Assembly: GCA_001794215.1 (NCBI GenBank)
Contig: MGJK01000011.1
Span: 3,170-67,169 of the forward strand
Origin: Candidatus Yanofskybacteria bacterium RIFCSPHIGHO2_01_FULL_44_24
Lineage (GTDB): Bacteria; Patescibacteriota; Minisyncoccia; 2-02-FULL-40-12; GWA2-44-9
DNA: 64,000 nt
Direction of reading: 5' to 3'
Positions within the stretch are counted from its first letter, which is position 1; each line of letters starts with the position of its first letter. A model generated the notes under the pieces. That model was not told the DNA's origin. It saw only the letters and a program-made list of their open reading frames with translations, and did not search any database. The position numbers and the translations under genes were made by a program. Shown in pieces: positions 347 through 55,809 of this stretch.

Positions 347-447
347 TTATTTACCCGCTATCTATTTACTATTGTTAAAATACTTTCCTCGGTAACCAGT
401 GTCTAAATCCTTAAAGATTCAATCATCGGTTACAGAAAATACCCACG

Positions 448-553
448 CCCCATCTGGGGTCAAGCTACATACTATATACTTTATTAATTTTTGCAAATCC
501 GCCTTCGGCTTTTTACCTGCTACTATCTGAATTATCGCCCAGATGAAGCGGGG
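448..553. ncRNA. X-family structured element copy 1 (CCCCATCTGG ... GCCTTCGGC ... GCCCAGATGAAGCGGGG)
   Basis: Three copies (448-553, 8758-8862, 16400-16499) with conserved outer stem CCAUCUGG/CCAGAUGG, central C(UUCG)G hairpin and 3' AGCGGG tail. Copy 2 carries a compensatory change (CUAUCUGG/CCAGAUAG). Confidence 0.5.
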
Positions 554-1147
554 TTCTATTGTTAGCAGCCACTCATTACATTCGTGGGCTAACAATGAAA
601 AAACCGCTCTCAAGCGGCATTAGTGAATACGCACAAAAAATGGACGTTATCAGCCGCTTTTAGTAAGTAATTGTAAGAATATATTCATCAGTTTTGTGCT
701 TATAAGTATATCAGATGGGCTATCCACAAGTCAACCCCTCACTTGAGGAGGATAGGTTCTGTCAGGCAAGGCTTCGGAACAGGACATAAGTAGTATTTCG
801 ATATATAAATTGCGGTTTGTTTATTTTGAGAACAGTTGCCTTGCTGATCCTCTTCAAGTGCAGGGGTCAATACCGTACCATAGGATAAGCGCTCACCCGG
901 GAAAAGACCTCGAAAACTACCCCTTCCTTTCAATTTCCCTGTCTCTTTTCTGAAGGTAAAAGACGATACTATATAATACCGCGATCAAGACATGAAGCGC
1001 CAAGTGTTTTAAGAATTTATGCTCTGATAATTTCTTATGAATCGCCGGCAGATTGTGAGATCCGCGAGCTATACGAGATTCGGTTGTTTTAGATTTATCC
1101 TCCATACTTTAATACATGATACCACATTTAGAAAAACTATTTATGCC

Positions 1148-4717: not shown

Positions 4718-4820
4718 TCGAGTTTATAAAGTTTGTAAAGTTATAATGTTTATAAAGTTTTAGTGAATCTGAGCCTTACTTATTAACTTTATTAACTTTA
4801 AGAACTTGATGAACTTTTAA

Positions 4821-5291
4821 CTATTTGATTGTCCCTCCGGCTTTCAGAACTTTGTTTTTGGCTGATTTGGAGAACTGAAAACCTTCGAACTGCATTTTTT
4901 TCTTAAGCTCTCCCCCGCCAAGTATCTTTACCCCGTTTGCAATCTTATCGATCAATCCTTTTTCTTTAAGCAGACCGGGCGTAACGACATCTACGTCAAA
5001 TTGATTGAAAAATCCTAAATTTAAAACTCCGGGCTTTGTATGCCTGAGCTGAAAATACCGGTGCTTTGGATGGGGATTGGAACCTCCGGGCTTTTTTGAG
5101 GCTCCTCTTTGCTTGGGAAACAGCTGCCAAAGCCTGCTATCGCCGCCCCTGAAACCTGGCTTGACTCCTGCGCCGGCCCGGGATTTTTGACCTTTCATAC
5201 CTTTGCCGGAGTATGTCCCGCGTTTACCGCCACGGCCGACTCTTTTTCGGTTTTTTCGAAGCGTTTTAGATTTTAATTGTGATAAATCCAT
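4821..5291 (-). CDS. rplO: 50S ribosomal protein L15
   Basis: N-terminus KNRKRVGRGGKRGTYSGKGMKGQKSRAG typical of L15. Confidence 0.9.
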   Translation of the reverse strand: MDLSQLKSKTLRKNRKRVGRGGKRGTYSGKGMKGQKSRAGAGVKPGFRGGDSRLWQLFPKQRGASKKPGGSNPHPKHRYFQLRHTKPGVLNLGFFNQFDVDVVTPGLLKEKGLIDKIANGVKILGGGELKKKMQFEGFQFSKSAKNKVLKAGGTIK

Positions 5292-5374
5292 AGTCGTTTA
5301 ACTAAAGTTAAAATTTAAAAATCAAAATGCAAAATTCCTGTAACTCATTAAAATCTTTGATTTTAATGAGCATC

Positions 5375-5944
5375 CTAAACTTTTAACTTTTCGCTTTTAA
5401 TTTTTAATTTCTTTAAGGCTTCTATCGTAGCCATGGCAATATTGATCTTATTATTTGTTCTTTCGATGAGCTTTCCGGTCAATGCAGTTATGCCTAAAAG
5501 CTTAGCGACAACTCGAACGGGTCCGCCGGCTTTTACTCCACCGATCGTCGGCTTTAATAAAACTACGGCACTATTGTATTTGGCTTCAACTTGATAAGGA
5601 ATGGTACCCTTAACAATCGGGATTGTTATAAGATTTTTCTTAGCCCTGTTGAAAGCTTTTTGGACTGACTGAGCGACGTCTCTTCCTTTATTAATACCTA
5701 TGCCAACCCTTCCTTTGCCGTCTCCGATGACAATAGTCGCTCGAAAACTAAATCTCTTGCCGCCCTTAGTAACCCTTGTTACCCTGGCAATATCAATGAC
5801 TTTCTGTTCAAACTCCGATTTAGCATCGCCGGAATGCCCTCCTCTGCGAGGTCCGCGTCCACCCCTGCCTCCTCTTCCGCCCATTCTGTTCCTATTGTCA
5901 CCCCTGGGGACATTGCCTATATTATTTTGTTTAATTGGTTCCAT
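5375..5944 (-). CDS. rpsE: 30S ribosomal protein S5 with N-terminal Gly/Arg-rich extension
   Basis: S5 dsRBD and C-terminal domain (VTRVTKGGKRFSF..GDGKGRVG..). Start moved to the internal Met (MEPIKQ) because the upstream 8 codons lie inside the H3 repeat. RGGRGGRGPRRGG extension. Confidence 0.85.
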   Translation of the reverse strand: MEPIKQNNIGNVPRGDNRNRMGGRGGRGGRGPRRGGHSGDAKSEFEQKVIDIARVTRVTKGGKRFSFRATIVIGDGKGRVGIGINKGRDVAQSVQKAFNRAKKNLITIPIVKGTIPYQVEAKYNSAVVLLKPTIGGVKAGGPVRVVAKLLGITALTGKLIERTNNKINIAMATIEALKKLKIKSEKLKV

Positions 5945-6458: not shown

Positions 6459-7004
6459 TTATCCGGCAGCTACCGCTTTCTTGCCGGCCTTTTTCTTTAT
6501 AACCTCCCCCTGATATCTGATTCCGCTGCCCTTGTAAGGTTCCGGCTCTCTCTTGGACCTTATCCCGGCGGCCACGTGGCCTATAAGCTCATTATCGATG
6601 CCGGATATCTTTATAACGCTCTTTTCAACTTTAAAAGTAACCCCCTCCGGCGCTTTAACCATGATTGGATGTGAATACCCAAGGTTTAGTTCCAGATCAT
6701 TGCCCTTTACATTAGCCTTGTAACCGATGCCTTCGAATTCAAGAACTTTTTCAAAACCGTCGGTAACTCCCTTGATCATGTTCTGAATAAGGGCTCTAAA
6801 CAATCCCCAGGAAGCATTGTCAATTACGGCCTGACCGCTCACCGGTTTAATCATAACTGATCCGTTAGAAACGCTTGCAGATACCGAACCGGAAATCTTC
6901 TTCTTTAATTCACCCTTGGGGCCCTTAACCGAAATCAGACCATCGTTAATCTGGACATCTACTCCTTTTGGTACTGGTATTGGTTTTTTGCCGATTTTCG
7001 ACAT
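6459..7004 (-). CDS. rplF: 50S ribosomal protein L6
   Basis: 181 aa with two L6 repeats (PIPVPKGVDV...GPKGEL). Confidence 0.9.
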   Translation of the reverse strand: MSKIGKKPIPVPKGVDVQINDGLISVKGPKGELKKKISGSVSASVSNGSVMIKPVSGQAVIDNASWGLFRALIQNMIKGVTDGFEKVLEFEGIGYKANVKGNDLELNLGYSHPIMVKAPEGVTFKVEKSVIKISGIDNELIGHVAAGIRSKREPEPYKGSGIRYQGEVIKKKAGKKAVAAG

Positions 7005-7126
7005 AAGCTTCGCTAAATTAAAAACGTAAAACTAAAAATTTAAAACTCTGGAAATCCAAAATTTTCCTTGGAGAAATTTTGGATAACATTAATTTTGCAC
7101 TTTTCGCTTTGCATTTTGAATTTTTA
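7005..7126. repeat. A-type AT-rich intergenic repeat (rpsH-rplF spacer)
   Basis: GCTTCGCTAAATTAAAA...CAAAATTTTCCTTGGAGAAATTTTG...TTTGCATTTTGA module shared with 7529-7645, 10653-10768, 11408-11529, 13410-13527 and 14630-14745. Confidence 0.7.
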
Positions 7127-7528
7127 TTACCACACCTCAAACAGCATTTCTCCTCCTATTTTATTCTTCATGGCTTCCTTGGAACTCATCATACCTTTAG
7201 GAGTCGAGATAACCGCTATTCCATATCCTGATCTTACCGGTTTTATCTCACTTGATTTAACATATAAATGGCGGGATGGACGGCTTATCACCTTGAATCC
7301 GCTTATAGCACCTTGGCCATCTTCGTATTTTAAAGTGATTTCTATATATTCATGTTCGGCCTTAACGGCTTTTTCCTTTTTTCTTTCTACTCCGCTTATG
7401 AATCCGTTTTCCTGCAAAATCGAGGCAATCTTGAACTTAGGTCCGGAAAAAGGAACCGAAACCTGCTCATGCTTAACCGCTTGAGCGTTCTTAATTCTTA
7501 CTAACATGTCTCCTATTGGATATGACAT
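7127..7528 (-). CDS. rpsH: 30S ribosomal protein S8
   Basis: 133 aa. MSYPIGDMLVRIKNA... typical S8 N-terminus. Confidence 0.9.
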   Translation of the reverse strand: MSYPIGDMLVRIKNAQAVKHEQVSVPFSGPKFKIASILQENGFISGVERKKEKAVKAEHEYIEITLKYEDGQGAISGFKVISRPSRHLYVKSSEIKPVRSGYGIAVISTPKGMMSSKEAMKNKIGGEMLFEVW

Positions 7529-7645
7529 AGCTTTACTAAATTAAAAGTTAAAAATGAAAAGTTTAAAATTCTGGTTATTAACTTCTCCGAACCATTCGGA
7601 AAAGTTAATCTCATTAATTTTGATTTTTGATTTTTGCATTTTGAT
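7529..7645. repeat. A-type AT-rich intergenic repeat (rpsN-rpsH spacer)
   Basis: Same module family, with a TCTCCGAACCATTCGGAAAAG inner hairpin variant. Confidence 0.65.
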
Positions 7646-7831
7646 TTACCAAGATGACTTCTTAACTCCGGGTAAAAGGCCTTGGCTGGCTAATTCTCTA
7701 AAATGTATCCGGCACAAACCGAATTTCCTCATGTATCCGCCTTTTCTCCCGCATAGAAAACATCTCCGAACTATCCGTGTTGAAAATTTAGGTTTCTTAT
7801 CTGATCTTGCAATTGTTGATTTCTTTGCCAT
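7646..7831 (-). CDS. rpsN: 30S ribosomal protein S14, zinc-binding type (61 aa)
   Basis: [23 protein letters not shown] zinc-ribbon S14 (type Z) signature. Confidence 0.9.
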
Positions 7832-7913: not shown

Positions 7914-8459
7914 TTATTTATCTTTTTTTATCGGAAATCCCATTAATTTTAACAATTCAATGCCCCTCTCCCTATTCTTTGCCGTAGTAACAACCGTTAC
8001 CTCTAATCCAAATATATCTTTCAAGCTTTCGTAGGTGATCTCCGGGAATATGCTGTGTTCTTTGATGCCTAAGTTTAAATTGCCCGAGCTGTCAAAATTT
8101 TTCGAATCAATCCCTCTGAAATCTTTGGATCGAGGAAGAGCGACATGGATCAATCGATCTATGAAATCATACATCCTCTTACCGCGCAAGGTAACCACCA
8201 GTCCTATCCTCATCCCCTGCCTAGTCTTAAAACCTGATATAGACTGCTTAGCTGTCCTGAAAACCGCTTTCTGGCCGGAAAGAAGAGCTAAATCTTTCTG
8301 AGCTTTCTCTAAAAACTTTTCATCCTTCGCAACCTTGCCTATACCTACATTTATGACCACCTTTTCAACCCGCGGGACGGCCATCACGTTTTCTATATCA
8401 AAAGCCTTCTGCATTGCAGGTACTATTTTCTTTCTGTATTGTTCTAATAAACTTGACAT
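7914..8459 (-). CDS. rplE: 50S ribosomal protein L5
   Basis: 181 aa with L5 motifs (PRVEKVVINVGIG, RGKRMYDFIDRL). Confidence 0.9.
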   Translation of the reverse strand: MSSLLEQYRKKIVPAMQKAFDIENVMAVPRVEKVVINVGIGKVAKDEKFLEKAQKDLALLSGQKAVFRTAKQSISGFKTRQGMRIGLVVTLRGKRMYDFIDRLIHVALPRSKDFRGIDSKNFDSSGNLNLGIKEHSIFPEITYESLKDIFGLEVTVVTTAKNRERGIELLKLMGFPIKKDK

Positions 8460-8679
8460 ATATTAACGGATTGTTATGCTATCACTAAATTTGCTTTTTG
8501 AAAAGGGATTATCCATATGGAACAGTTTCTTACTCGCGGAAGATTCTTTATCGTTAGCTGGCTTGGACTTACATTTTTGGTCACTTATTTACTCCCTCAA
8601 GCATCACTTGCCGTACTTCTGCTCGTTTCCGGAATACCAGCTTGGTTACTGTCTGGCTGGCTATCCAAGCCCCGTACCG

Positions 8680-8705
8680 CCAAATAAGGCGGTTTTTTAT
8701 TGGGG
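8680..8705 (+). terminator. plus-strand rho-independent terminator (ACCGCC-AAATAA-GGCGGT + TTTTTTA) inside the minus-strand r-protein cluster
   Basis: Perfect 6-bp GC stem followed by a T-run on the plus strand only. On the minus strand the same hairpin is preceded, not followed, by the U-run. Confidence 0.45.
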
Positions 8706-8757
8706 CTCCATCCCCCACCAATTTCGTCCGCCAATCGTATCGCAAGTCGCTCCGTCC

Positions 8758-8862
8758 CGCCCTATCTGGATCCAAATTAACTTTTGGCACACTATCATCT
8801 TACAAATCGCCTTCGGCTTTTCTTCCTGTTAATACCCTTCTTTGTGCCCAGATAGAGCGGGG
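8758..8862. ncRNA. X-family structured element copy 2, inside a 412-bp non-coding insertion between rplX and rplE
   Basis: CCCUAUCUGG ... CGCCUUCGGCU ... GCCCAGAUAGAGCGGGG. The stem carries a compensated C-to-U / G-to-A change relative to copies 1 and 3. Confidence 0.5.
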
Positions 8863-8872
8863 TTCCGCTTCG

Positions 8873-9178
8873 TCAAACCTCCGCTTCACATTTCTTGCAA
8901 ATTCTGGTCTTGTTTACACCTTCCACTTTGTAACCGACTCTCGTCGGCTTACCGCATGACTTACATATCAAAGCAACGCTAGATACGCTGATGGCCCTTT
9001 CTTTATTCACAATCTGTCCTTTCTGGCCTTGCTTGCGCGGTCGAAGATGTCTCTTTACCAAGTTTAATCCTTCGACAACCAAGGTGCCGCTCTCAGGAGA
9101 AACTAAAACAACCTTCCCCTTTTTCCCGCGGTCTTTACCGCCCAGCATTATTACATTGTCACCGCGTTTTAATTTCAT
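8873..9178 (-). CDS. rplX: 50S ribosomal protein L24 with C-terminal C4 zinc-ribbon extension
   Basis: KOW motif (GDNVIMLGGKDRGKKGKV) plus C-terminal CKSCGK...CKKCEAEV. Confidence 0.85.
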   Translation of the reverse strand: MKLKRGDNVIMLGGKDRGKKGKVVLVSPESGTLVVEGLNLVKRHLRPRKQGQKGQIVNKERAISVSSVALICKSCGKPTRVGYKVEGVNKTRICKKCEAEV

Positions 9179-9257
9179 TAAAACAGTTAAAAGTTCGTCA
9201 AGTTCTTAAAGTTTTTAAAGTACTTTATGAACTTTACAAACCTTATAAACTTTAAAC

Positions 9258-9623
9258 TCATACTACTTCTTCCGCTAATGATGCTATCGTAGCAAATCCC
9301 CTCTCTTTTATCTCTCTGGGTATGGGTCCGAATATTCTACCGCCCTTGGGCTCTTTGCCGTCTAATATGACCACCGCATTATCATCAAAACGGATATAAG
9401 TTCCGTCTTTTCTCCTGAAAGCCTTTCTCTGTCTTACTACAACCGCTCTTAGGACATCCTTCTTCTTAACCGCCTTTCTCGGCTCAGCCACTTTAACTGA
9501 AACGACTACAATGTCGCCAAGTTCGGCATACCTTCTCTTTGATCCTCCAAGCACCTTAAAGACCCCCACTTTCTTGGCTCCTGTATTATCTGCGACATTT
9601 ACTATTGAACGTAATTGCAGCAA
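9258..9623 (-). CDS. rplN: 50S ribosomal protein L14
   Basis: [18 protein letters not shown]... canonical L14. Confidence 0.95.
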
Positions 9624-10247: not shown

Positions 10248-10652
10248 CTATCGTTTCACGATTCTTGTTTTTAGGGGCAATTTATGGGAACCCAACCGCA
10301 AAGCCTCTTTAGCGTCGGCCTCAGAAACGCCGTCGATCTCGAATATTATCTTACCAGCCTCAACCGGTACAATAAAGTGCGAAAGGCCTCCCTTGCCTCC
10401 ACCCATACCCACCTCGGCGCTCTTAGCGGTCCTGGGCTTATCCGGAAATACTCTGGTCCATATTTTACCGCCCCTTTGAACAAATCGAGCCATAACCTTT
10501 CTGGCGGATTCTAACTGATTGGCCTTAACCCAAGATGATTCCCCCGCTTTAAGACCAAACGTACCGAAGCTTAACTCAACGCCTCTTGTGGCGCGCGCTT
10601 TCAACTTGCCTCGATGCACCTTCGGATGTTGTATTCTGGCTGGCTGTAGCAT
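10248..10652 (-). CDS. rplP: 50S ribosomal protein L16
   Basis: 134 aa. MLQPARIQHPKVHRGKLKARATRGVELSFGTFGLKA. Confidence 0.95.
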   Translation of the reverse strand: MLQPARIQHPKVHRGKLKARATRGVELSFGTFGLKAGESSWVKANQLESARKVMARFVQRGGKIWTRVFPDKPRTAKSAEVGMGGGKGGLSHFIVPVEAGKIIFEIDGVSEADAKEALRLGSHKLPLKTRIVKR

Positions 10653-10768
10653 GGCTTCGCTAAATTAAAAGTTAAAAGTTAAAAATGAAAAATTCAGGAA
10701 ATTCAAAATTTTCCTTGGGGAAATTTTGAATAACATTAATTTTGATTTTTGATCTTTGCATTTTGATA
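10653..10768. repeat. A-type AT-rich intergenic repeat (rpsC-rplP spacer)
   Basis: Over 90% identical to the copies at 13410-13527 and 14630-14745. Contains the perfect palindrome CAAAATTTTCC-TTGG-GGAAATTTTG and ends with GCTTCGCTAAATT abutting the start codon. Confidence 0.75.
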
Positions 10769-11407
10769 TTACTTATCAAAGACTTCACCTTTATATATCC
10801 AAACCTTAACGCCTACCGTGCCATATGTAGTATGGGCGGTAGCTTTAGCAAAATCGATATTAGCCCTAAGCGTCTGCAGCGGTAAATTCCCCTCTTCAAG
10901 ATGCTCCGATCTTGCTATTTCTGAACCGTCAAGACGGCCGCCCATCTGAAGCTTGGCTCCCTTGGCTTGCTTATTAGACAATATCTTCGCAAGGGTCTGC
11001 TTAAGAATTCGCCGATAGGGAATCCTCTTCTCCACCTGGTCAACCATAGATTCGGCCATTATCTGAGCTGATAACTCTGGGCTTTTTATCTCTTGAATCT
11101 CTATCCTTACCGAAACTTTATCTTTAAGAAGTCGCTGAACGGCTTTTTTAATATCTTCCACTCCTCCACCGCCTCGTCCTATCAAAAGACCGGGCCTGGC
11201 AGTATGAATAATTATACTTAAGGCATCACTGCCCCTTTCAATCTCTATCTTATCAATACTCATGTTCCTGAGCTTTGATTCTAAAAAGGTTCGGACTTTC
11301 AAATCGTCTTTAAGATAAGGGACGTATTTTCGCCCACCAAACCATCGGGACAGCCAGTCCTTATTAATGCCGAGTCGTAATGATGTTGGTGATATTTTTT
11401 GTCCCAT
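10769..11407 (-). CDS. rpsC: 30S ribosomal protein S3
   Basis: 212 aa with KH domain and S3 C-terminal domain (MGQKISPTSLRLGINKDW). Confidence 0.95.
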   Translation of the reverse strand: MGQKISPTSLRLGINKDWLSRWFGGRKYVPYLKDDLKVRTFLESKLRNMSIDKIEIERGSDALSIIIHTARPGLLIGRGGGGVEDIKKAVQRLLKDKVSVRIEIQEIKSPELSAQIMAESMVDQVEKRIPYRRILKQTLAKILSNKQAKGAKLQMGGRLDGSEIARSEHLEEGNLPLQTLRANIDFAKATAHTTYGTVGVKVWIYKGEVFDK

Positions 11408-11529
11408 AATCGCTTCGCTAAATTTAAAATTTAAAAATCATAGTTAAAAATTATTGAAATTCAAAACTTTGTTAACAAAGTTTTGAGTAACCTGAATTTT
11501 ACATTTTGACATTTGCATTTTGATATTCT
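11408..11529. repeat. A-type AT-rich intergenic repeat, divergent copy (rplV-rpsC spacer)
   Basis: ATCGCTTCGCTAAATTTAAAA...CAAAACTTTGTTAACAAAGTTTTG...TTTGCATTTTGAT. Confidence 0.65.
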
Positions 11530-12036
11530 TTACACCGACTTTCTCTGAAATAATTTTCTACCCATATTAAATACTCCCTTCTTCGATCCTATTTCCCTTT
11601 TAATTTCGTGCTTTTTCTCTTCAGCGTGATGAGCCTCAGTACTCAATTCTTCTTTATGCTTAGCGTCCTGCTCCTTAGTTTTACTGCGCTTGAGACCGGG
11701 AACCCTCTCATCCAAAACTATCGTAACATGGCTTGTCTTTTTCTGGATCGGCTCAGCTCTTCCGAAGCCCTTGGCTCTGAATCGTTTCAACTTTATACCT
11801 TCATTAACAAAGAATTTCTTAACGTAAAGATTATCTCTTACCATCCCGAAACTGTTCTCGGCATTAGCAATAGCGGAGTTAAGAAGTTTTCTAAGATTAT
11901 CGGCCGGTTTCCTAATGAATACCTCGAGCTGATTCAGGGCGTCAACGGCACTCTTTCCTTTGACCAAATTAACCACCGCCCTGACTTTTCTGGGCGCTAT
12001 CCTTAATCTGTTTAATTTTGCGGTGACTTCGGTCAT
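11530..12036 (-). CDS. rplV: 50S ribosomal protein L22 with about 55-aa basic/acidic C-terminal extension
   Basis: L22 core (RIAPRKVRAVVNLVKGKSAVDALNQLE) followed by a Lys/Glu-rich tail. Confidence 0.85.
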   Translation of the reverse strand: MTEVTAKLNRLRIAPRKVRAVVNLVKGKSAVDALNQLEVFIRKPADNLRKLLNSAIANAENSFGMVRDNLYVKKFFVNEGIKLKRFRAKGFGRAEPIQKKTSHVTIVLDERVPGLKRSKTKEQDAKHKEELSTEAHHAEEKKHEIKREIGSKKGVFNMGRKLFQRKSV

Positions 12037-12482: not shown

Positions 12483-12584
12483 CTCGGTTTATAAAGTTTG
12501 TAAAGTTATAAAGTTTATAAAGTTTTGTAAATCTGAACTTTTACCTCTCACTTTATGAACGTTATGAACTTGATGAACTTTTAA
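12483..12584. repeat. B-type AT-rich repeat with 9-10 bp periodic AAGTTTATAA units (rplB-rpsS spacer)
   Basis: GTTTATAAAGTTTGTAAAGTTATAAAGTTTATAAAG... Related copies at 4718-4820, 9179-9257, 21970-22050 and 37886-37986. Confidence 0.65.
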
Positions 12585-13409
12585 CTATTTAATCCGTCTT
12601 CGTATAATGAACTTATTCGACTTATTCTTCCTGTTTCTGGTTTTTACTCCACCCGTTATTCTGCCCTGAGCGGTCTTCGGTCTTCTAGTTCCCCTACCCT
12701 GTCTTCCTTCACCGCCTCCATAAGGATGATCTACCGGATTCATCGCCGTACCCCTAACCTTCGGTCTTATACCGAGCCAGCGCGACCTCCCGGCTTTTCC
12801 TGAAACAACGGAACTGTGCTCCATATTTGAAACATTGCCTATCGATGCGTAGCATTCCTCCGAAATCATTCTTGTTTCTGAAGAAGGCATGACCAATTGA
12901 ACATATCCTCCTTCGCTTGCCAAAACCGTAGCGCCGTTCCCGGCCGATCTCACCATTTTCCCGCCGCTACCAGGAAATGGTTCTATATTATGAACTATAG
13001 AGCCTTGGGGAATATTTTTGAGCTTCATCCTATTCCCGGGCTTAAGCGGTGCTTTTTCAGATGTAATGATTTTATCTCCCGGTTTAAGATCCTGGGGTGC
13101 AATGATGTATCTCTTTTCGCCATCGGCGAAGTGAAGACGGGCAATTCGGGCATTTCTGTTTGGATCATATTCTAAGGAAAAAACGGTAGCCGGAATATTA
13201 AATTTATCCTGCTTGAAATCAACGAGACGATATTGTTTCTTGGCTCCTCCGCCACGATGACCGGCGGTAATTCTTCCCTGGTTATTCCTTCCCCCGGTTC
13301 TTTTAAGATGCTCCTTCAAAAACCTTAAAGGCTCAGTCTTGGTTAATTGAGAAAAGTCCGGTCCTATCATGTGTCGCCTTGAAGGCGTTGTCGGCTTGTA
13401 ATACTTCAT
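12585..13409 (-). CDS. rplB: 50S ribosomal protein L2
   Basis: 274 aa. GRNNQGRITAGHRGGG ... HPYGGGEGR motifs. Confidence 0.95.
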   Translation of the reverse strand: MKYYKPTTPSRRHMIGPDFSQLTKTEPLRFLKEHLKRTGGRNNQGRITAGHRGGGAKKQYRLVDFKQDKFNIPATVFSLEYDPNRNARIARLHFADGEKRYIIAPQDLKPGDKIITSEKAPLKPGNRMKLKNIPQGSIVHNIEPFPGSGGKMVRSAGNGATVLASEGGYVQLVMPSSETRMISEECYASIGNVSNMEHSSVVSGKAGRSRWLGIRPKVRGTAMNPVDHPYGGGEGRQGRGTRRPKTAQGRITGGVKTRNRKNKSNKFIIRRRIK

Positions 13410-13527
13410 CGCTTCGCTGAATTAAAAATTAAAAGTTAAAAATGAAAAATTCAGGAAATTCAAAATTTTCTTTGGGGAAATTTTGAATAACATTAATTTT
13501 GATTTTTGATATTTGCATTTTGATCTT
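13410..13527. repeat. A-type AT-rich intergenic repeat (rplW-rplB spacer)
   Basis: Near-identical to 10653-10768 and 14630-14745. Confidence 0.75.
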
Positions 13528-13993: not shown

Positions 13994-14629
13994 CTATTTA
14001 CTAAAGTATGTCAATGAATCTTTCGTCATTAAAAGATATCTGCTGCCAAGAACGGCGGCTGCATTCAAATTCCTTGCCTCATAAACATCGGTTCGGGGAA
14101 TATTCCTTGAGGCTATCTTAATATCATTTTTGCTGTCGCTTGGAACAACTATCATCATGGATTGGTTCTTTTTTTCGACAAACAAATTTAAAACTGCCCT
14201 GGTAACCGCCGCCATTTCTCTTGTCTTCCTGTTCTCAAGCTTAATATCATCCAAAACTATAATCTGGCCGTCTCGAGCTTTAGCTGACAACGCAGTAAAC
14301 AAAGCTTTTTTGGCCATTTTCTTATTTATTTTTTTCTTAAAAATCCTCTCTTTAGTCGGACCGCCGGTAACTCCTCCGCCCTTCCAGATCGGAGATCGTA
14401 TAGAACCGTGACGGGCCCTACCGGTTCCTTTCTGTCTCCAGGGCTTCTTTCCACCGCCACGCACCTCTCCCCTTCCTTTGGTATGGGCGATCGTCTGTCT
14501 TTGGTTGGCTATCTGAGAAGTTACAACCTGATGCAGTAAATCTTTATTCATCTCCAAATTAAAAACCTGATCTACGAGATCAATCTGTCCGACTTTCTCT
14601 GCTTTTTGATTATACAGCGGCAATTTCAT
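13994..14629 (-). CDS. rplD: 50S ribosomal protein L4
   Basis: 211 aa. KGRGEVRGGGKKPWRQKGTGRARHGS, a canonical L4. Confidence 0.95.
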   Translation of the reverse strand: MKLPLYNQKAEKVGQIDLVDQVFNLEMNKDLLHQVVTSQIANQRQTIAHTKGRGEVRGGGKKPWRQKGTGRARHGSIRSPIWKGGGVTGGPTKERIFKKKINKKMAKKALFTALSAKARDGQIIVLDDIKLENRKTREMAAVTRAVLNLFVEKKNQSMMIVVPSDSKNDIKIASRNIPRTDVYEARNLNAAAVLGSRYLLMTKDSLTYFSK

Positions 14630-14745
14630 CGCTTCGCTAAATTAAAAATTAAAAGTTAAAAATGAAAAATTCAGGAAATTCAAAATTTTCCTTGGGAAAA
14701 TTTTGAATTTCATTAATTTTGATTTTTGATCTTTGCATTTTGATC
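14630..14745. repeat. A-type AT-rich intergenic repeat (rplC-rplD spacer)
   Basis: Near-identical to 10653-10768 and 13410-13527. Confidence 0.75.
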
Positions 14746-15354
14746 TTATTGTGTTTGGACCATAACTACTCCCCCATTATTACCGGGAACCGCTCCCTTT
14801 ACCGCTAAAAGTCCTTTTTCCTCATCTATCGCCACAACTCGAAGACCTCTGACGGTAAATTTATCATTTCCCATCCTACCGGGCATCCTCATACCTTTTA
14901 AAGTATGCTGAGGAAATCTTTGTCCGATTGAACCGGCATGACGCATTACAGAATGATGGCCGTGACTGGCAGGCATACCGGAGAATCCATGTCTTTTTAC
15001 CACGCCCTGAAAACCTTTTCCTTTAGTCATCCCCGTAACCTTCACCAAATCGCCGACGGCGAAGAGAGAAACATTGAGCTTATCTCCGCGCTTTAGCTCT
15101 CCGGGAGTAGTTCTGAATTCTTTTAAGACTTTGAAAGTTCCCAAGTCCTTGGTATGTCCTTTCTGAGCCTTGGTCACGTTTTTTTCCTTTCTTTTTCCGA
15201 ATCCAACCTGAACACCTTCGTATTTATCTTTTTCCTTCGTTCTAATCTGAACCACAGTATTCGTTTCCGCCTCAATAACCGTCACCGGAGTGACGTCACC
15301 TTTATCATCATATATCTGGGACATGCCCATTTTTTTACCTAATATGAACTTCAT
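14746..15354 (-). CDS. rplC: 50S ribosomal protein L3
   Basis: 202 aa. GMTKGKGFQGVVKRHGF... canonical L3. Confidence 0.95.
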   Translation of the reverse strand: MKFILGKKMGMSQIYDDKGDVTPVTVIEAETNTVVQIRTKEKDKYEGVQVGFGKRKEKNVTKAQKGHTKDLGTFKVLKEFRTTPGELKRGDKLNVSLFAVGDLVKVTGMTKGKGFQGVVKRHGFSGMPASHGHHSVMRHAGSIGQRFPQHTLKGMRMPGRMGNDKFTVRGLRVVAIDEEKGLLAVKGAVPGNNGGVVMVQTQ

Positions 15355-16377: not shown

Positions 16378-16399
16378 GTTATTTATCCACGAATCCCGG

Positions 16400-16499
16400 C
16401 CCCATCTGGAGCGACACTCGTAATATTACTTGGTTTATTTTGCAAAACGCCTTCGGCTCTATCTGGTCTTTACTGTCATTCTTGCCCAGATGGAGCGGG
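16400..16499. ncRNA. X-family structured element copy 3, in the insertion between rpsJ and rplC
   Basis: CCCCAUCUGGAG ... ACGCCUUCGGCUCU ... GCCCAGAUGGAGCGGGA. Confidence 0.5.
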
Positions 16500-16554
16500 A
16501 TAAATTCCGGCAACCAATCGTCCTTCGCTACTGCTCGGACTCTTGGGCCGTCAT

Positions 16555-21969: not shown

Positions 21970-22162
21970 TCGCGGGTTAAAAGTCCATCAAGTTCTTAAA
22001 GTTAATAAAGTACTTTACAAACTTTATAACTTTACAAACTTTATAAACTATTTCTTAGGTCTCTTCGCTCCGTATTTGCTCCTCTGTTGTCCCGATTTTG
22101 TTCATCGGAACGATGACTACAAAATCGTGGATCCACGATTTGCCCTGCAAATCGGGACATTC

Positions 22163-37885: not shown

Positions 37886-37986
37886 TCAGTTCATCAAGTT
37901 TCTAAAGTTATAAAGTTCTTAAAGTTAAAACTTTATAAACCTTATAAACTTTCGACTTTTTACTGAAAATTATGCCACAAAAAAAT

Positions 37987-52923: not shown

Positions 52924-53177
52924 AGCGGACTCCCTCCAAAGACGGACAAGCGAACCGCTCTGTCAATAAATAATGACGGGCCGCTTGTGGACCGTACCAG
53001 ATTCGAACCGCTGTCACAACTCTCGCAATCTTCCGATTGCTCGGTCGCGACCCCGTCTCATGGTATCACTCACCAAAAGCTCGTGATACATCATTACGAC
53101 TCTCAATTCTCTCAGAAAGCAAAGCAGTTTGCTTTCTTTCGTGGAATTGAGCCTCCTCATTGTCCCGATAGCAAGGG

Positions 53178-53273
53178 TGGTCTATTCTTGAAATAGTTCG
53201 GACGGTTTTCGCCGCCGCAGGCGGCGAAGAAAGCCCCCCGCGAAATTCCGAAATTGCGGCTCTGCCGCGCCGA
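53178..53273. repeat. IR-A left arm (96 bp, perfect inverted repeat of 54086-54180)
   Basis: Verified by hand reverse-complementation: GGTCTATTCTTGAAATAGTTCGGACGG...GCTCTGCCGCGCCGAT. Confidence 0.85.
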
Positions 53274-53372
53274 TGACAATTTCAAGTTTTTCTTTGGCGG
53301 CACAAATTCAATATGAATTTTAATCTAAAAACGCAAAAAATACAAAAAGAAAAAACTCCAGCAACAAGCAGG

Positions 53373-54008
53373 CTACTGGAGTGGGTGTCGGCGAATTTTT
53401 TCCGCCGCGGAAAGAACGTCGTTGGGAATTTCTACTTTTACAATATCGCCTTTCTTGGCGTACTCATTGAGTCTTTCAAGTTCACCGAGAAGTCGACTGA
53501 TTCGACGAGAAGTGAACCACTCTTTGGGCATTGGAAACGCACTACCGTAGACAGTAATTTCAGGAAATTGCTTTCGGAAAGTGGCGCACGACCTTCTCAA
53601 CAGAGGGGGCATGGCGCACAGGATTACCGATTTTGGATTTACTCCGGCATTGCGGCACGCAGACATTCCCAAAAGAACATTTTCGAGAGAGTTTGTAGAT
53701 TCTTTCTCAAGTATCAGGGCTTTTTTAGGAACACCATCGGATTCAATCAACGAAGCGTAAAATTCTGCTTCCGTTGCAAATCCATCTGGAATGGCATCTC
53801 TGCCTCTACCAGAGATGACAATGCGCGGTGCCTTACCTTTTTTCCAAAGTTCTGCGGCATGGTGTGCTACCTGCGGTTCGTAATGACCAAAAACAAAAAT
53901 GGTGTCAGATTGCGGCAAGTCTTTGGTTGGGACGCTTTCGGTCAGAAACTCGGTTACTGTGTCAACGAACGGCTGAATAGTTTTCAAGTCGGCCTCCTTT
54001 GTTTCCAT
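53373..54008 (-). CDS. DUF218 (YdcF/SanA-like) domain protein
   Basis: LILEKESTNSLENV matches the DUF218 LEdrSrnTyENa core. Flanked by the IR-A arms. Confidence 0.6.
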   Translation of the reverse strand: METKEADLKTIQPFVDTVTEFLTESVPTKDLPQSDTIFVFGHYEPQVAHHAAELWKKGKAPRIVISGRGRDAIPDGFATEAEFYASLIESDGVPKKALILEKESTNSLENVLLGMSACRNAGVNPKSVILCAMPPLLRRSCATFRKQFPEITVYGSAFPMPKEWFTSRRISRLLGELERLNEYAKKGDIVKVEIPNDVLSAAEKIRRHPLQ

Positions 54009-54085
54009 AGGATTAAAAATTTTCTTTTCCCAAAATTAAAATACAGTTCGAGCCGATATTTTTACAGGTTCTTTGGCAATTTTTA

Positions 54086-54180
54086 TCGGCGCGGCAGAGC
54101 CGCAATTTCGGAATTTCGCGGGGGGCTTTCTTCGCCGCCTGCGGCGGCGAAAACCGTCCGAACTATTTCAAGAATAGACC
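54086..54180. repeat. IR-A right arm
   Basis: Reverse complement is identical to 53178-53273. Confidence 0.85.
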
Positions 54181-54275
54181 ACATTTTAGAAAACCGCAAG
54201 TCATTGGAAGCCGCCTCGCTTTGCTCGGCGGCCAATTCGTATTGAATTTTGGGCGAAAAAATCAGTTGGCGATTA
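54179..54275. repeat. IR-B left arm (97 bp, perfect inverted repeat of 55689-55785), abutting IR-A
   Basis: CCACATTTTAGAAAACCGCAAGTCATTGGAAGCCGCCTCGCTTTGCTCGGCGGCCAATTCGTATTGAATTTTGGGCGAAAAAATCAGTTGGCGATT. Confidence 0.85.
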
Positions 54276-54312
54276 TGTATTTTTGGGAAAGAAAATTTTT
54301 AATCAAAACCAC

Positions 54313-55809
54313 ATGAAATACATACTTTACGCTCGCAAGAGCACCGAGGATGAAGACAGACAAATTTTAAGCATTGAGGCCCAAGTCTTTGAGTTAAAAG
54401 AATTTGCCGCCAAAGAAAAACTTGAAATTGTCGCCTCTTTTCAAGAGGCAAAAACTGCCAAAGAACCTGGGCGAATTAAATTCGCAGAAATGTTGTCATT
54501 GATTGAAAAGGGTAAGGCCGAGGGCATACTTTCATGGAATCCAGACAGATTGGCAAGAAACAGCGTTGACGGCGGAAGGATAATTCACATGATTGATCGC
54601 GGCTTGATTAAGTCATTGAAATTTCCAACGTTTTGGTTTGAACCGACACCACAGGGTCTATTTATGCTCCAAATTGCTTTTGGCCAAAGTAAATATTACG
54701 TGGATGCTTTACGCGAGAATGTAACGCGTGGAATGAGGCAAAAAGTGAGAAACGGCGTATGGCCAAGCAAAGCTCCGCTCGGCTATCTCAATAATCCGAA
54801 AACCAGAGGAATTGATATTGACAGAGAAAAAGCCCAGAAAGTTAAAAAGATTTTTGAACTTTACGCCACCGGAAGCTACAACTTGCGAGAATTGGCCGAG
54901 TGGTGCAAGCGAATAAATCTTAAAAGCAATTTGGAGTGGAACATCGCCATCTCTCAAGTCCATAAAATACTCCAAAATGTTTTCTACATTGGCTTAATGA
55001 AATACAAAGGTGAAATCTACGAAGCAACCCACGAGCCGTTAATTTTAAAGAAACTTTTTGATAAAGTGCAGGAAATTATGCGAGAGAAAGGAAAACCGCA
55101 AAAAGTGAAGAAACATAATTTTGCTTTTCTTGGCTTAATGAAATGTCCGTGTTCTGCTACGATAACCGCTGAAAAGAAAATCAAGCCAAGTGGCAAAGAA
55201 TATATTTACTATCGTTGCACAAAAAAGAAAGGACCTTGCCAAGAAAAGCACTTTTTGCGGCAGGAAGAACTATACACCCAAATCAAATCTTTTCTTCAAA
55301 AAGTTTCTTTGTCGAGCCACGACACCAAGAAGGTTTTATCTGAATTAGACAAAGAGGAATCACAAGCAAAAGAACAATCAAAAATCACTGTTCAAAATCT
55401 CAAGGCCAGTTTTTCTGAAATTGAAAAGAAGCTTGAAAAACTTCTCGATGTCTATTTGGCCGAAACTATTACCGCCGAAGAATACGTTTCGCGCAAAGAA
55501 AAATTGGTCAAACAAAAGGTCGGTCTGCAAGAGCAAATCCGAGATTTTGAACAGAAAGGCCTGTCGTGGCTCGAACCGGCTCGTGAGTTCGTTTTATCCT
55601 TAAATCAAGCCTCAAAACTGCTTGAATCAGAAAACAAAACAGAAATGACAACATTTCTCAAAAATATCGGCTCGAACTGCATTTTACAGAATCGCCAACT
55701 GATTTTTTCGCCCAAAATTCAATACGAATTGGCCGCCGAGCAAAGCGAGGCGGCTTCCAATGACTTGCGGTTTTCTAAAATGTGGACCCAAGCGGACTCG
55801 AACCGCTGA
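54313..55809 (+). CDS. large serine recombinase (resolvase/invertase catalytic domain, recombinase domain, zinc ribbon and coiled coil)
   Basis: N-terminal YARKSTEDEDRQ...SIEAQ catalytic region. CPCS...C..C zinc ribbon at about aa 290-320. Start set at MKYILY. The last 36 codons lie within the IR-B right arm. Confidence 0.8.
   Translation: MKYILYARKSTEDEDRQILSIEAQVFELKEFAAKEKLEIVASFQEAKTAKEPGRIKFAEMLSLIEKGKAEGILSWNPDRLARNSVDGGRIIHMIDRGLIKSLKFPTFWFEPTPQGLFMLQIAFGQSKYYVDALRENVTRGMRQKVRNGVWPSKAPLGYLNNPKTRGIDIDREKAQKVKKIFELYATGSYNLRELAEWCKRINLKSNLEWNIAISQVHKILQNVFYIGLMKYKGEIYEATHEPLILKKLFDKVQEIMREKGKPQKVKKHNFAFLGLMKCPCSATITAEKKIKPSGKEYIYYRCTKKKGPCQEKHFLRQEELYTQIKSFLQKVSLSSHDTKKVLSELDKEESQAKEQSKITVQNLKASFSEIEKKLEKLLDVYLAETITAEEYVSRKEKLVKQKVGLQEQIRDFEQKGLSWLEPAREFVLSLNQASKLLESENKTEMTTFLKNIGSNCILQNRQLIFSPKIQYELAAEQSEAASNDLRFSKMWTQADSNR
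55689..55785. repeat. IR-B right arm (overlaps the recombinase C-terminus and 3 nt of tRNA-Ala)
   Basis: Reverse complement is identical to 54179-54275. Confidence 0.85.

What the first reader, a model, noticed from the sequence alone, without database searches (positions are those of the whole stretch)
8460..8872. 412-bp non-coding insertion between rplX and rplE with a plus-strand (antisense) terminator
rplX and rplE are normally contiguous. The gap holds the X2 element and, at 8680-8705, a textbook rho-independent terminator that reads correctly only on the plus strand (ACCGCC-AAATAA-GGCGGT-TTTTTTA), which is antisense to the operon. This implies a plus-strand transcript of about 200 nt (roughly 8470-8700) ending there. 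It could be a cis-antisense RNA against the spc operon, or an independently transcribed ncRNA.
Basis: seen in the sequence. Interest (0 to 1): 0.55.

Follow-up and report, generated by a model that had tools for sequence, protein, structure and literature searches.

The report
Small antisense gene splits ribosomal operon
The gap between two ribosomal-protein genes in this groundwater CPR bacterium is not empty: it holds a small membrane-protein gene read in the opposite direction, with its own promoter and terminator, plus a structured RNA hairpin, and ten related species share the layout.

Summary
rplX (8873-9178, minus) and rplE (7914-8459, minus) are 413 bp apart. A hairpin (8676-8693) with a T-run reads as an intrinsic terminator only on the plus strand.

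The "non-coding RNA" interpretation is only partly right. The terminator ends a roughly 210-nt plus-strand unit that looks like an mRNA:
- promoter TTGACA-16-TGtTATGCT (8453-8480);
- SD-like AAGGGA;
- a 56-codon hydrophobic ORF (8517-8687) whose stop codon lies in the hairpin loop.

Ten distinct Candidatus Yanofskybacteria species carry the same module at the same site. Each has a 45-56 aa ORF that is the only frame free of stops in every locus, and the most hydrophobic frame. The protein sequences diverge fast and match no database entry.

The -10 hexamer is shared, as the symmetric 7-mer TATGCTA (8475-8481), with an operon-strand promoter (TTTTCA-17-TGaTAGCAT) in front of rplE. This is a bidirectional promoter with a predicted 18-bp spacing between start sites.

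No operon-strand terminator exists in any of the ten loci, so operon read-through would be antisense to the small mRNA (a noncontiguous-operon-like layout).

The GC-rich part of the gap (8753-8865, minus) is one copy of a repeated hairpin RNA element ("X"). It appears to have inserted into the old rplX 3' end.

The protein's function is unknown, and there is no expression evidence.

The parts
8873..9178 (-). rplX (L24, 101 aa, C-terminal CxxC...CxxC tail). It forms the upstream border of the gap.
   Evidence: ORF. Pfam ribosomal_L24/KOW on the identical public contigs.
8753..8865 (-). 'X' element, copy A. A GC-rich hairpin RNA element of about 110 nt directly after the rplX stop codon. Its basal stem is 15-16 bp (CCCCGCUCUAUCUGG / CCAGAUAGGGCGGG) and it has an invariant inner hairpin GCC-GAA-GGC.
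   Evidence: GC 0.5-0.55 against 0.25-0.3 in other spacers. Two more copies lie in the window at 441-556 (-) and 16393-16503 (-). There are syntenic copies in L094 and copies in L092 and L010. Two stem columns show compensatory changes, and there are 14 G-U cells against 1 A-C cell, so it pairs only as operon-strand RNA. No Rfam match.
8700..8752 (-). Spacer between X and the terminator. Probably a relic of the former 3' end of rplX (GAUGGAG...AAUAA next to the hairpin).
   Evidence: In five X-less relatives rplX ends ...E-T-stop (GAAACATAA / GAGACATAA / GAAACGTAA) directly against the hairpin. X-bearing loci keep GATGGAGACATAA (L009), GAGCGGAAACATAA (L092) or GATGGAGCCCCAATAA (window) at that place, and rplX has a new end upstream of X. 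This is an inference.
8676..8698 (+). Intrinsic terminator of the plus-strand gene: hairpin 8676-8693 plus T-run 8694-8698. The ORF's TAA (8685-8687) is in the loop.
   Evidence: dG -10.2 kcal/mol. A plus-sense terminator is present at the same place in 10 of 10 species, and no operon-strand terminator was found in the loci scanned for one.
8517..8687 (+). Small ORF of 56 aa: MEQFLTRGRFFIVSWLGLTFLVTYLLPQASLAVLLLVSGIPAWLLSGWLSKPRTAK. It is hydrophobic, with a predicted membrane helix or helices.
   Evidence: ORF. ORFs of 45-56 aa sit at the same place in 9 other species. Open-frame shuffle test. Frame-specific hydrophobicity and absence of stops. Protein similarity window-L092 z = 6.1, dN/dS 0.38. 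AF2 predicts helix 2-38 and helix 43-49 at pLDDT 79.
8503..8508 (+). SD-like AAGGGA, 8 nt before the ATG.
   Evidence: GG(A/G) lies 6-12 nt before the ATG in 10 of 10 loci. The same AAGGGA precedes tuf, whereas most internal r-protein genes have none.
8453..8480 (+). Plus-strand promoter: -35 TTGACA (8453-8458, overlapping the rplE start codon at 8457-8459), 16-nt spacer, extended -10 TGtTATGCT (8472-8480). Predicted TSS about 8487.
   Evidence: 10 of 12 matches plus TG. Conserved in 10 of 10 loci.
8476..8504 (-). Operon-strand promoter in front of rplE: -35 TTTTCA (8504->8499), 17-nt spacer, extended -10 TGaTAGCAT (8484->8476). Predicted TSS about 8469. Its -10 overlaps the plus-strand -10 by 5 nt (7-mer TATGCTA, 8475-8481).
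   Evidence: TT[G/T]TCA-17-TGnTAnnAT with a 5-nt -10 overlap in 10 of 10 loci. The geometry matches the shared -10 bidirectional promoters described in PMC12825309.
7914..8459 (-). rplE (L5, 181 aa). It forms the downstream border of the gap.

Best explanation
The rplX-rplE gap is a conserved, composite insert made of four parts.

1. A plus-strand gene for a 56-aa hydrophobic (membrane) protein. It is transcribed from a sigma70-type promoter at 8453-8480 and translated from the ATG at 8517 behind an AAGGGA Shine-Dalgarno-like site. Transcription is stopped by the intrinsic terminator at 8676-8698, which keeps this transcript from running antisense into X and rplX.

2. A second promoter on the operon strand that uses the same -10 region (7-mer TATGCTA, 8475-8481). 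The two form one bidirectional promoter with predicted start sites 18 bp apart. It re-initiates transcription of rplE and the distal spc genes with a leader of about 10 nt.

3. A hairpin RNA element ('X', 8753-8865) of about 110 nt in the rplX 3' UTR. It belongs to a repeated family of spacer hairpins.

4. A relic of the old rplX 3' end, displaced by X.

The hairpin terminates only plus-strand transcription. RNA polymerase coming from rplX should therefore read through, antisense to the small mRNA. The small gene and the operon would then be coupled as in a noncontiguous operon: convergent transcription, plus competition for one -10 element.

Shown by sequence and comparison: the parts and their conservation.
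Inferred: transcription, translation, read-through and coupling.
The biochemical role of the small protein is unknown. My best guess is a small membrane protein (regulatory or toxin-like) expressed reciprocally to ribosomal-protein transcription.
For: Anatomy in the window.

Relatives:
- The same module lies between rplX and rplE in ten distinct Yanofskybacteria species: the window, L009/L094, L010, L090, L092, L095, L096, L097, L104 and L113.
- The 5'-UTR pattern scan of metagenomes returned the module only at this locus; its other hits lacked the module's ORF and terminator and look like chance matches.
- 10 of 10 have a plus-sense promoter, a GG-containing SD-like site, an ORF of 45-56 aa, a stop codon within -11 to +16 nt of the hairpin start, and a hairpin of -8.4 to -16.6 kcal/mol with a T-rich tail.
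- In L095 a gene caller independently called the 48-aa ORF.

Coding evidence:
- The open frame from the conserved ATG has per-locus shuffle p of 0.04-0.15, jointly about 1.6e-8 over 7 loci.
- The ORF frame is the only one with zero stops in all ten loci and has the highest hydropathy (mean KD 0.79-1.85, best 19-residue window 1.86-3.06).
- Some pairs keep protein similarity: window-L092 z = 6.1, L010-L113 z = 5.8.
- Substitutions run position 2 < position 1 < position 3 in all three alignable pairs, with dN/dS 0.36-0.38 in the two where dS could be estimated.
- The SD-like AAGGGA equals the one before tuf.

Bidirectional promoter: operon-strand TT[G/T]TCA-17-TGnTAnnAT with a 5-nt -10 overlap in 10 of 10 loci. 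This matches the published shared -10, 18-bp class (PMC12825309).

Monophyly: module-bearing taxa fall in one L5 clade.

X as operon-strand RNA.
Against: - There are no expression data of any kind.
- The small proteins are so divergent that most pairs show no detectable similarity. The window protein has no credible homologue among 1.84 billion representative proteins, no Pfam, NCBIfam or PADLOC match, and was never called as a gene on its own contigs.
- Part of the hydrophobicity follows from T-rich composition.
- The dN/dS alignments were chosen by protein similarity, which biases them downwards, and dS is saturated.
- Promoter-like hexamers are not enriched over shuffles in this region (4 found against 4.7 expected). 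The promoter calls rest on conservation, and part of that conservation is forced: the -35 TTGACA overlaps the rplE start codon.
- The window's operon-strand promoter is weak (TTTTCA / TAGCAT).
- Four taxa inside the clade (L011-L014) lack the module, so it is dispensable.
Confidence: 0.7

Rival explanations
1. One reading: the plus-strand product is a non-coding RNA of about 200 nt (a cis-antisense or independent sRNA), and the ORF is incidental.
For: - The promoter and terminator are real-looking and conserved.
- The ORF sequence is very poorly conserved, and the flanks are better conserved than the body.
- There are no protein homologues.
Against: - The frame is open from a positionally conserved ATG to the terminator in 10 of 10 species.
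- Only that frame lacks stops everywhere and is strongly hydrophobic.
- An SD-like site is conserved.
- Substitutions follow a codon-position pattern.
- The plus strand of the gap does not fold better than shuffles (z = -1.1).
- No Rfam match reaches threshold: no gathering-level hit in the gap, and the E-value scan gave only a chance-level fluoride hit.
- The transcript overlaps no ribosomal-protein CDS.
Confidence: 0.1
2. The act of transcription matters, not the protein. Under this view the module is an insulator or interference device that splits the S10-spc super-operon. Translation of an arbitrary ORF would only keep the antisense transcript from premature (Rho-type) termination.
For: - Extreme protein divergence together with strict conservation of position, length, promoter geometry and terminator.
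- A shared -10 with the rplE promoter.
- No operon-strand terminator.
Against: - Consistent membrane-helix-like hydrophobicity specific to the ORF frame.
- Retained protein similarity with dN/dS below 1 in sub-lineages.
- The module is absent from four taxa in the clade with a contiguous rplX-rplE, so the operon does not need it.
Confidence: 0.1
3. The small ORF is a type I toxin-like peptide, and operon read-through RNA acts as its antisense antitoxin.
For: - Size of 45-56 aa, a hydrophobic helix or helices, its own promoter and terminator.
- It would be fully overlapped by antisense operon transcription, because no operon-strand terminator is present.
- Fast sequence turnover.
- Related CPR operons do host toxin-antitoxin insertions: a RelB/YafQ pair lies between rpsJ and rplC in L095.
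Against: - No dedicated antisense sRNA promoter faces the ORF. The only operon-strand promoter points away from it.
- The 5' UTR is short (about 30 nt) and shows no sequestered SD.
- The gene is single-copy and syntenic, with no paralogues in the held sequence.
- No match to any known toxin family.
- Toxicity is untested.
Confidence: 0.08
4. The gap is a neutral remnant of mobile-element insertions with no function, and the terminator is fortuitous.
For: - X behaves like a repeated, MITE-like hairpin with conserved ends and a variable interior.
- The junction is also variably filled in other lineages (L015, L018, L023).
- The module has been lost in some taxa.
Against: All module parts are kept intact in ten species whose L5 proteins differ by 14-21 % or more and whose ORF bodies are saturated with substitutions. 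A neutral remnant would have lost the frame, the promoter or the terminator.
Confidence: 0.02

Closest known systems
Noncontiguous operons / excludons (for example the S. aureus menE-menC operon with an oppositely oriented internal gene; PMC11034616, PMC7154746)
   Same: A gene in the opposite orientation is embedded between genes of one operon. There is no terminator on the operon strand, so the operon transcript would overlap the embedded gene's mRNA in full. Mutual repression is the expected outcome.
   Different: - Here the host is the universally conserved spc ribosomal-protein operon of a CPR bacterium.
- The embedded gene is an orphan small membrane protein.
- The distal half of the operon also has its own promoter, which shares the -10 with the embedded gene.
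- Read-through and mutual repression are not demonstrated. The authors state that such operons cannot be predicted without transcriptomes.
Bidirectional promoters with a shared, symmetric -10 element (Warman et al. 2021, as described in PMC12825309)
   Same: The 7-mer TAnnnTA serves as the -10 on both strands. The -35 elements lie 16-17 bp away on each side. The predicted divergent start sites are 18 bp apart, which is the most common published spacing.
   Different: Identified here by sequence and conservation only. One arm drives essential ribosomal genes. The organism is a Patescibacterium whose sigma factor specificity has not been studied.
Type I toxin-antitoxin toxins and other small hydrophobic proteins (Hok, TisB, Fst/Ldr, TxpA, BsrG; AcrZ- or MgtS-type regulators)
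   Same: A hydrophobic peptide of at most 60 aa, a monocistronic unit with an intrinsic terminator, and exposure to antisense transcription.
   Different: No sequence similarity to any family. No dedicated antitoxin sRNA. A short leader. A strictly syntenic single copy. Toxicity and binding partners are unknown.
SR7/S1136 of Bacillus subtilis, a dual-function antisense RNA that encodes a 39-aa protein (PMC7834092)
   Same: A small transcript that encodes a small protein and also has antisense potential. It is linked to the ribosome: the abstract reports that it reduces small ribosomal subunit levels under ethanol stress.
   Different: The transcript here overlaps only the spacer, and no ribosomal-protein CDS. 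There is no evidence for an RNA-level function, and no homology.
S8 translational operator at the rplX-rplE junction of the E. coli spc operon (from my own knowledge; not tested here)
   Same: The same junction in the same operon is used as a regulatory site.
   Different: The E. coli operator is a short mRNA structure on the operon strand that mimics the rRNA binding site of S8. Here the junction holds a separate gene, a promoter pair and a repeated hairpin element.
REP / ERIC / MITE-like intergenic hairpin repeats (for the X element only)
   Same: Repeated long hairpins with conserved ends and variable interiors, sitting in the spacers of highly expressed operons.
   Different: X copies are syntenic between species. 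All lie on the transcribed strand and tolerate G-U but not A-C, which points to selection on RNA. No transposase or target-site duplication was identified.

Membership tests
Intrinsic (Rho-independent) terminator | GC-rich stem-loop immediately followed by a U-tract on the transcribed strand | tested here: met
   6-bp stem with 5 GC pairs, 6-nt loop, tail TTTTTATT on the plus strand. dG -10.2 kcal/mol. Absent on the minus strand.
Intrinsic (Rho-independent) terminator | Lies at the 3' end of a transcription unit on the same strand, and is conserved there | tested here: met
   The ORF stop codon is in the hairpin loop. An equivalent terminator is present in 10 of 10 species.
Intrinsic (Rho-independent) terminator | RNA 3' ends map to the U-tract | not testable with these tools
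   Needs term-seq or 3' RACE.
Bidirectional promoter (shared -10) | Pseudo-symmetric -10 usable on both strands | tested here: met
   TATGCTA at 8475-8481 gives TATGCT (+) and TAGCAT (-). A 5-nt overlap is seen in 10 of 10 loci.
Bidirectional promoter (shared -10) | Divergent transcription start sites about 18 bp apart | not testable with these tools
   Predicted at 8487 (+) and 8469 (-), which is 18 bp, assuming 7 nt from the -10. Needs TSS mapping.
Protein-coding small gene | Open frame with a start signal, conserved across species beyond chance | tested here: met
   Joint shuffle p about 1.6e-8 over 7 loci. It is the only stop-free frame in 10 of 10 loci. SD-like site plus ATG are conserved.
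Protein-coding small gene | Purifying selection on the amino-acid sequence | tested here: inconclusive
   dN/dS is 0.36-0.38, and substitutions run position 2 < 1 < 3 in the alignable pairs. However, the alignments were chosen by protein similarity and dS is saturated. Most pairs cannot be aligned.
Protein-coding small gene | Detected translation or protein | not testable with these tools
   Needs Ribo-seq or proteomics.
Type I toxin-antitoxin system | Small hydrophobic toxin peptide | tested here: met
   45-56 aa. The best 19-residue hydropathy window is 1.86-3.06 in all ten. Only size and hydrophobicity are met, not toxicity.
Type I toxin-antitoxin system | Dedicated antisense RNA antitoxin with its own promoter overlapping the toxin mRNA | tested here: not met
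   No operon-strand promoter faces the ORF. The only one is divergent from it. Only operon read-through could supply antisense RNA.
Type I toxin-antitoxin system | Similarity to a described toxin family | tested here: not met
   No Pfam, NCBIfam or PADLOC hit.
Noncontiguous operon / excludon | Oppositely oriented gene lying between genes of one operon | tested here: met
   The plus-strand ORF lies between the minus-strand rplX and rplE inside the S10-spc gene string.
Noncontiguous operon / excludon | The operon transcript spans the embedded gene, and expression is mutually repressed | not testable with these tools
   Consistent with the absence of an operon-strand terminator. PMC11034616 states that a transcriptome is required.
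   A conserved ORF is present. The predicted transcript 8487-8698 overlaps neither CDS.
Any Rfam family (including the fluoride riboswitch) | Covariance-model score at or above the gathering threshold | tested here: not met
   No hit in the gap at gathering level. The only hit at E < 10 is the fluoride riboswitch, 13 bits against a 34-bit threshold, E = 0.82, covering the terminator hairpin.

The most novel reading that the evidence does not exclude
In a lineage of ultra-small CPR bacteria, a fast-evolving small membrane protein may be wired directly into the ribosomal-protein super-operon. It shares one symmetric -10 element with the rplE-secY transcription unit and is transcribed head-on against read-through from rplX. 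Its synthesis would then be reciprocally coupled to ribosome production. That would make it a built-in growth-rate or dormancy switch, toxin-like, with the ribosomal operon transcript acting as the antitoxin.
Probability: 0.12. Interest if true: 0.65.

Novelty: new variant of a known kind. Interest (0 to 1): 0.42.

Why it matters
The S10-spc gene string is among the most conserved gene orders in bacteria and is usually treated as uninterrupted. This case shows four things:
- A CPR lineage stably keeps an oppositely oriented orphan small-protein gene inside that string.
- The distal half (rplE to secY) probably has its own promoter, which is bidirectional.
- Standard annotation missed the gene and called a spurious 69-aa ORF on the other strand.
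- It gives a concrete, testable case of noncontiguous-operon logic acting on ribosomal genes, and adds a family of small membrane proteins that protein databases do not contain.

If the coupling is real, it links ribosome synthesis to a membrane function in organisms whose physiology is largely unknown.

Tried and rejected
- Exact-protein look-up of the 56-aa ORF: not on record.
- Full HMMER search of 1.84 billion representatives: only two marginal hits (E about 5e-4) to large proteins, probably compositional.
- Pfam, NCBIfam and PADLOC scans of the small proteins (seven module ORFs; Pfam also included the L023 ORF): nothing meaningful.
- AF2 single-sequence model: helices only, too generic for a fold search.
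- Rfam: no family. The fluoride-riboswitch hit (13 bits against 34) covers the terminator hairpin and lacks the 3' half of the aptamer, so I rejected it.
- Strain-level SNP analysis: contigs of the same organism are 100 % identical across the gap, so they are uninformative.
- The 69-aa minus-strand ORF 8581-8790 (annotated in GCA_001795655.1) and the 118-aa plus-strand ORF 8476-8832 are rejected. Both run across X and the terminator and are not kept in relatives.
- A bidirectional terminator is rejected: there is no U-tract on the operon strand in any locus.
- X as an operon-strand terminator is rejected: there is no consistent U-tract after its 3' arm.
- Target-site duplications around X: none convincing.
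- Literature searches for an antisense gene between rplX and rplE, or for small proteins in CPR ribosomal operons: nothing relevant.
- Paralogues of the small proteins in the window and in all held loci: none.
Full report
**Source and observation.** The window is identical to contig MGKL01000022.1 of the groundwater MAG GCA_001795655.1, and to many Rifle-aquifer metagenome contigs. Its nearest relatives are named Candidatus Yanofskybacteria, in the CPR/Parcubacteria. The S10-spc ribosomal-protein gene string runs on the minus strand. rplX is 8873-9178 and rplE is 7914-8459, so the gap 8460-8872 is 413 bp. In most of the 79 relatives where both genes were located, the two genes are about 3-50 nt apart. 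The hairpin ACCGCC-AAATAA-GGCGGT (8676-8693) followed by TTTTTATT is present and is terminator-like only on the plus strand. Only the word "non-coding" is wrong.

**Anatomy of the plus strand.**
- Promoter: TTGACA (8453-8458), a 16-nt spacer, then TGtTATGCT (8472-8480). It was the best promoter-like site in the region scanned (10 of 12 matches plus an extended -10). The predicted start site is near 8487.
- An SD-like AAGGGA (8503-8508) lies 8 nt before the ATG at 8517.
- The ORF 8517-8687 encodes the 56-aa hydrophobic protein MEQFLTRGRFFIVSWLGLTFLVTYLLPQASLAVLLLVSGIPAWLLSGWLSKPRTAK. Its TAA stop lies in the loop of the terminator hairpin.
- The same AAGGGA precedes tuf, while most internal ribosomal genes of this operon have no SD.
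- Promoter-like and terminator-like sites are not enriched over shuffles by themselves. The argument rests on comparison with relatives.

**Comparative evidence.**
- Among genome-collection relatives, L009, L010 and L023 also have long gaps with an antisense hydrophobic ORF followed by a terminator.
- Contigs looked up through L5 homologues at 81-86 % identity added L090, L092, L095 and L096. In L095 a gene caller had itself called the 48-aa antisense ORF.
- A metagenome scan with the conserved 5'-UTR pattern CACWARWTTYRYTTTTTGAMAANGG returned 19 loci. Twelve of them are this module and, wherever flanking sequence was readable, sit between rplX and rplE. They add three further species (L097, L104/L110, L113). 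The rest lacked the module's ORF and terminator and look like chance matches.
- This gives ten distinct species. All ten have a plus-sense sigma70-like promoter, a GG-containing SD-like site, an ORF of 45-56 aa, a stop codon within -11 to +16 nt of the hairpin start, and a hairpin of -8.4 to -16.6 kcal/mol with a T-rich tail. No operon-strand terminator was found in the seven loci scanned.
- On a rough L5 neighbour-joining tree the nine module-bearing taxa that could be placed (L097's L5 was too short) form one clade, in which four taxa (L011-L014) lack the module. This suggests a single origin with later losses.

**Is it coding?**
- The frame from the positionally conserved ATG stays open to the terminator, with per-locus shuffle probabilities of 0.04-0.15. 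The joint value is about 1.6e-8 for seven loci whose ORF bodies are saturated with substitutions.
- In all ten loci this is the only frame with no stop anywhere. It is also the most hydrophobic frame: mean hydropathy 0.79-1.85 and best 19-residue window 1.86-3.06, against at most 1.09 and 1.85 in other frames.
- Most protein pairs cannot be aligned. Window-L092 (z = 6.1), L010-L113 (z = 5.8) and L010-L104 (z = 3.2) do retain similarity.
- In those three pairs, substitutions run position 2 < position 1 < position 3. dN/dS is 0.38 and 0.36 in the two pairs where dS could be estimated. This estimate is biased by the way the alignments were chosen, and dS is saturated.
- AF2 predicts helices.
- There is no homologue in 1.84 billion representative proteins and no Pfam, NCBIfam or PADLOC family.
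- I conclude that this is a fast-evolving orphan small membrane-protein gene, not an ncRNA.

**The shared promoter.**
- On the operon strand, TTTTCA (8504->8499), a 17-nt spacer, then TGaTAGCAT (8484->8476) precede rplE.
- In all ten species the operon strand has TT[G/T]TCA-17-TGnTAnnAT, and its -10 overlaps the plus-strand -10 by 5 nt, giving the 7-mer TAnnnTA (TATGCTA at 8475-8481 in the window).
- The predicted start sites (8487 plus, 8469 minus) are 18 bp apart. This is the most common spacing of bacterial bidirectional promoters that share a symmetric -10 (PMC12825309).
- The rplE leader from this promoter would be only about 10 nt, in line with the SD-less starts of the neighbouring genes.
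- Caveats: part of the conservation is forced, because the plus-strand -35 overlaps the rplE start codon. The window's operon-strand hexamers are weak.

**The rest of the gap.**
- Segment 8753-8865 (minus strand) is GC-rich and folds into a long hairpin.
- It is one copy of a family. Two more copies lie in the window, both on the minus strand: 441-556 in the 23S rRNA leader, and 16393-16503 after rpsJ.
- The L009/L094 species has copies at the same three sites. L092 has one after rplX, and L010 has one between rpsH and rplF.
- The basal stem of 15-16 bp shows two columns with compensatory changes. It has 14 G-U cells against one A-C cell, so it pairs only as operon-strand RNA.
- A covariance model finds more distant members with the same ends (TTAYCCCGCCC ... 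GGGCGGGGT) and very different interiors in other ribosomal spacers.
- No Rfam family matches.
- In five X-less species rplX ends ...E-T-stop directly against the terminator. X-bearing species have a new rplX end upstream of X and keep a GATGGAG..ATAA relic next to the hairpin, at 8700-8752 in the window. X therefore appears to have inserted into the old rplX 3' end. This is an inference.

**Mechanism.**
- Shown by sequence and comparison: the parts listed above and their conservation.
- Inferred: the bidirectional promoter fires rightwards into the small gene and leftwards into rplE and the distal spc genes.
- Inferred: the plus-strand terminator stops the small mRNA before it becomes antisense to X and rplX.
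- Inferred: because nothing terminates the operon strand, polymerases from rplX read through. They would collide with polymerases on the small gene and make RNA fully complementary to its mRNA.
- This is the layout of a noncontiguous operon or excludon (PMC11034616, PMC7154746). It predicts reciprocal expression of the small protein and the upstream ribosomal genes. Membership cannot be established without a transcriptome.
- The type I toxin reading fits size and hydrophobicity. It fails on the dedicated antitoxin RNA and on family similarity, so I keep it only as a minority hypothesis.

**Novelty and verdict.** Each component is of a known kind: an intrinsic terminator, a bidirectional promoter, a small membrane protein, and an antisense-embedded gene. 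What is new is the combination inside the spc operon of a CPR lineage, the unannotated protein family, and the link to a repeated hairpin RNA family. I rate it a new variant of a known kind, with moderate interest (0.42). Confidence that the plus-strand unit is a small protein-coding gene with its own promoter and terminator is about 0.7.

**Dead ends.**
- Same-organism contigs carry no SNPs in the gap.
- The annotated 69-aa minus-strand ORF and a 118-aa plus-strand ORF are not conserved and cross X and the terminator.
- The fluoride-riboswitch hit is at chance level.
- Literature searches found no precedent.

Noticed in passing
window 441-556 (-), 8753-8865 (-), 16393-16503 (-); L094 1964-2076, 6665-6780, 9490-9603, 18298-18413; L092 1159-1271; L010 1919-2034; L095 7046-7172, 18879-18986; L035 933-1103, 2071-2114: This is the 'X' hairpin family: long hairpins with conserved ends (TTAYCCCGCCC...GGGCGGGGT) and variable interiors of 20-150 nt. 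All lie on the transcribed strand in ribosomal-operon spacers and the 23S leader. Three sites are syntenic between two species. At the rplV-rpsC spacer, L094 and L095 have completely different but perfectly complementary arms of 17-19 bp. It could be an RNA processing or stability element, or a MITE-like repeat. No Rfam match.
   Followed up: partly
window 7001-7123, 7527-7653, 10648-10770, 11409-11532, 13405-13527, 14625-14747, 5293-5410: AT-rich palindromic elements of about 120 nt fill most spacers of the S10/spc operon (repeat families D1-D9, I3-I8). Their 3' end, TTTAGCGAAGCG, abuts the start codon of the next gene. Almost every intergenic spacer is therefore one long hairpin, and these genes lack an SD.
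   Followed up: no
window 4721-4831, 9176-9258, 12487-12593, 21976-22052, 37888-37960: A second spacer repeat family built from 9-nt periodic units (GTTTATAAAGTTTGTAAAGTTATAAAG-like), in both orientations. It includes the rplN-rplX spacer next to this finding (families D4, D6, D13, I5-I16).
   Followed up: no
window 598-734 (-): The 23S rRNA leader has a sigma70-like promoter (TTGACT 734-729, 18-nt spacer, TATACT 710-705). It also has a terminator-like hairpin, CCGCU-UGAG-AGCGG (617-604), followed by UUUUUU, about 400 nt before the 23S 5' end. This could be a leader attenuator. The 23S gene follows map directly, with no 16S in between.
   Followed up: no
L095 1511-2040: A RelB/YafQ toxin-antitoxin pair and several small ORFs are inserted between rpsJ and rplC in a related species. 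The ribosomal operons of this clade tolerate foreign insertions.
   Followed up: no
window 16376 downstream (-); L094 2131-2316; L095 1184-1378: A conserved small ORF of about 61-64 aa with a Cys pair (MELQEPKQKH...CDTCGG...) follows rpsJ (after X copy C in the window) and precedes rplC. It has no Pfam hit in the relatives.
   Followed up: no
window 8581-8790 (-): The public annotation (GCA_001795655.1) calls a 69-aa hypothetical protein here. It spans half of X, the relic, the terminator and the antisense of the small ORF, and it is not conserved. It is probably a spurious call that masked the real plus-strand gene.
   Followed up: yes
L009 3001-3003 (= L094 about 9959): In the L009/L094 species, rplE appears to start with ATT (CCGTTAATT-ATT-TCC-AAT) where the window has ATG (CCGTTAATAT-ATG-TCA-AGT). 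The gene caller instead chose a downstream start, giving 167 aa.
   Followed up: no
window 53177-55785: Two pairs of inverted repeats of 101-105 nt, 98-99 % complementary (I1, I2), bracket roughly 0.8 and 1.4 kb segments next to tRNA genes. This could be a recent duplication or inversion, or a mobile element.
   Followed up: no
L023 2619-3001; L015 2798-3001; L018 2762-3001: Other lineages also fill the rplX-rplE junction. L023 has an 85-aa two-helix antisense ORF with a terminator and a diverged copy of the same 5' UTR (ACAAGAT...). L018 has a collapsed X remnant (CCCCGCCTCATTTCTGG-ATGGCGG). L015 contains an assembly gap.
   Followed up: partly
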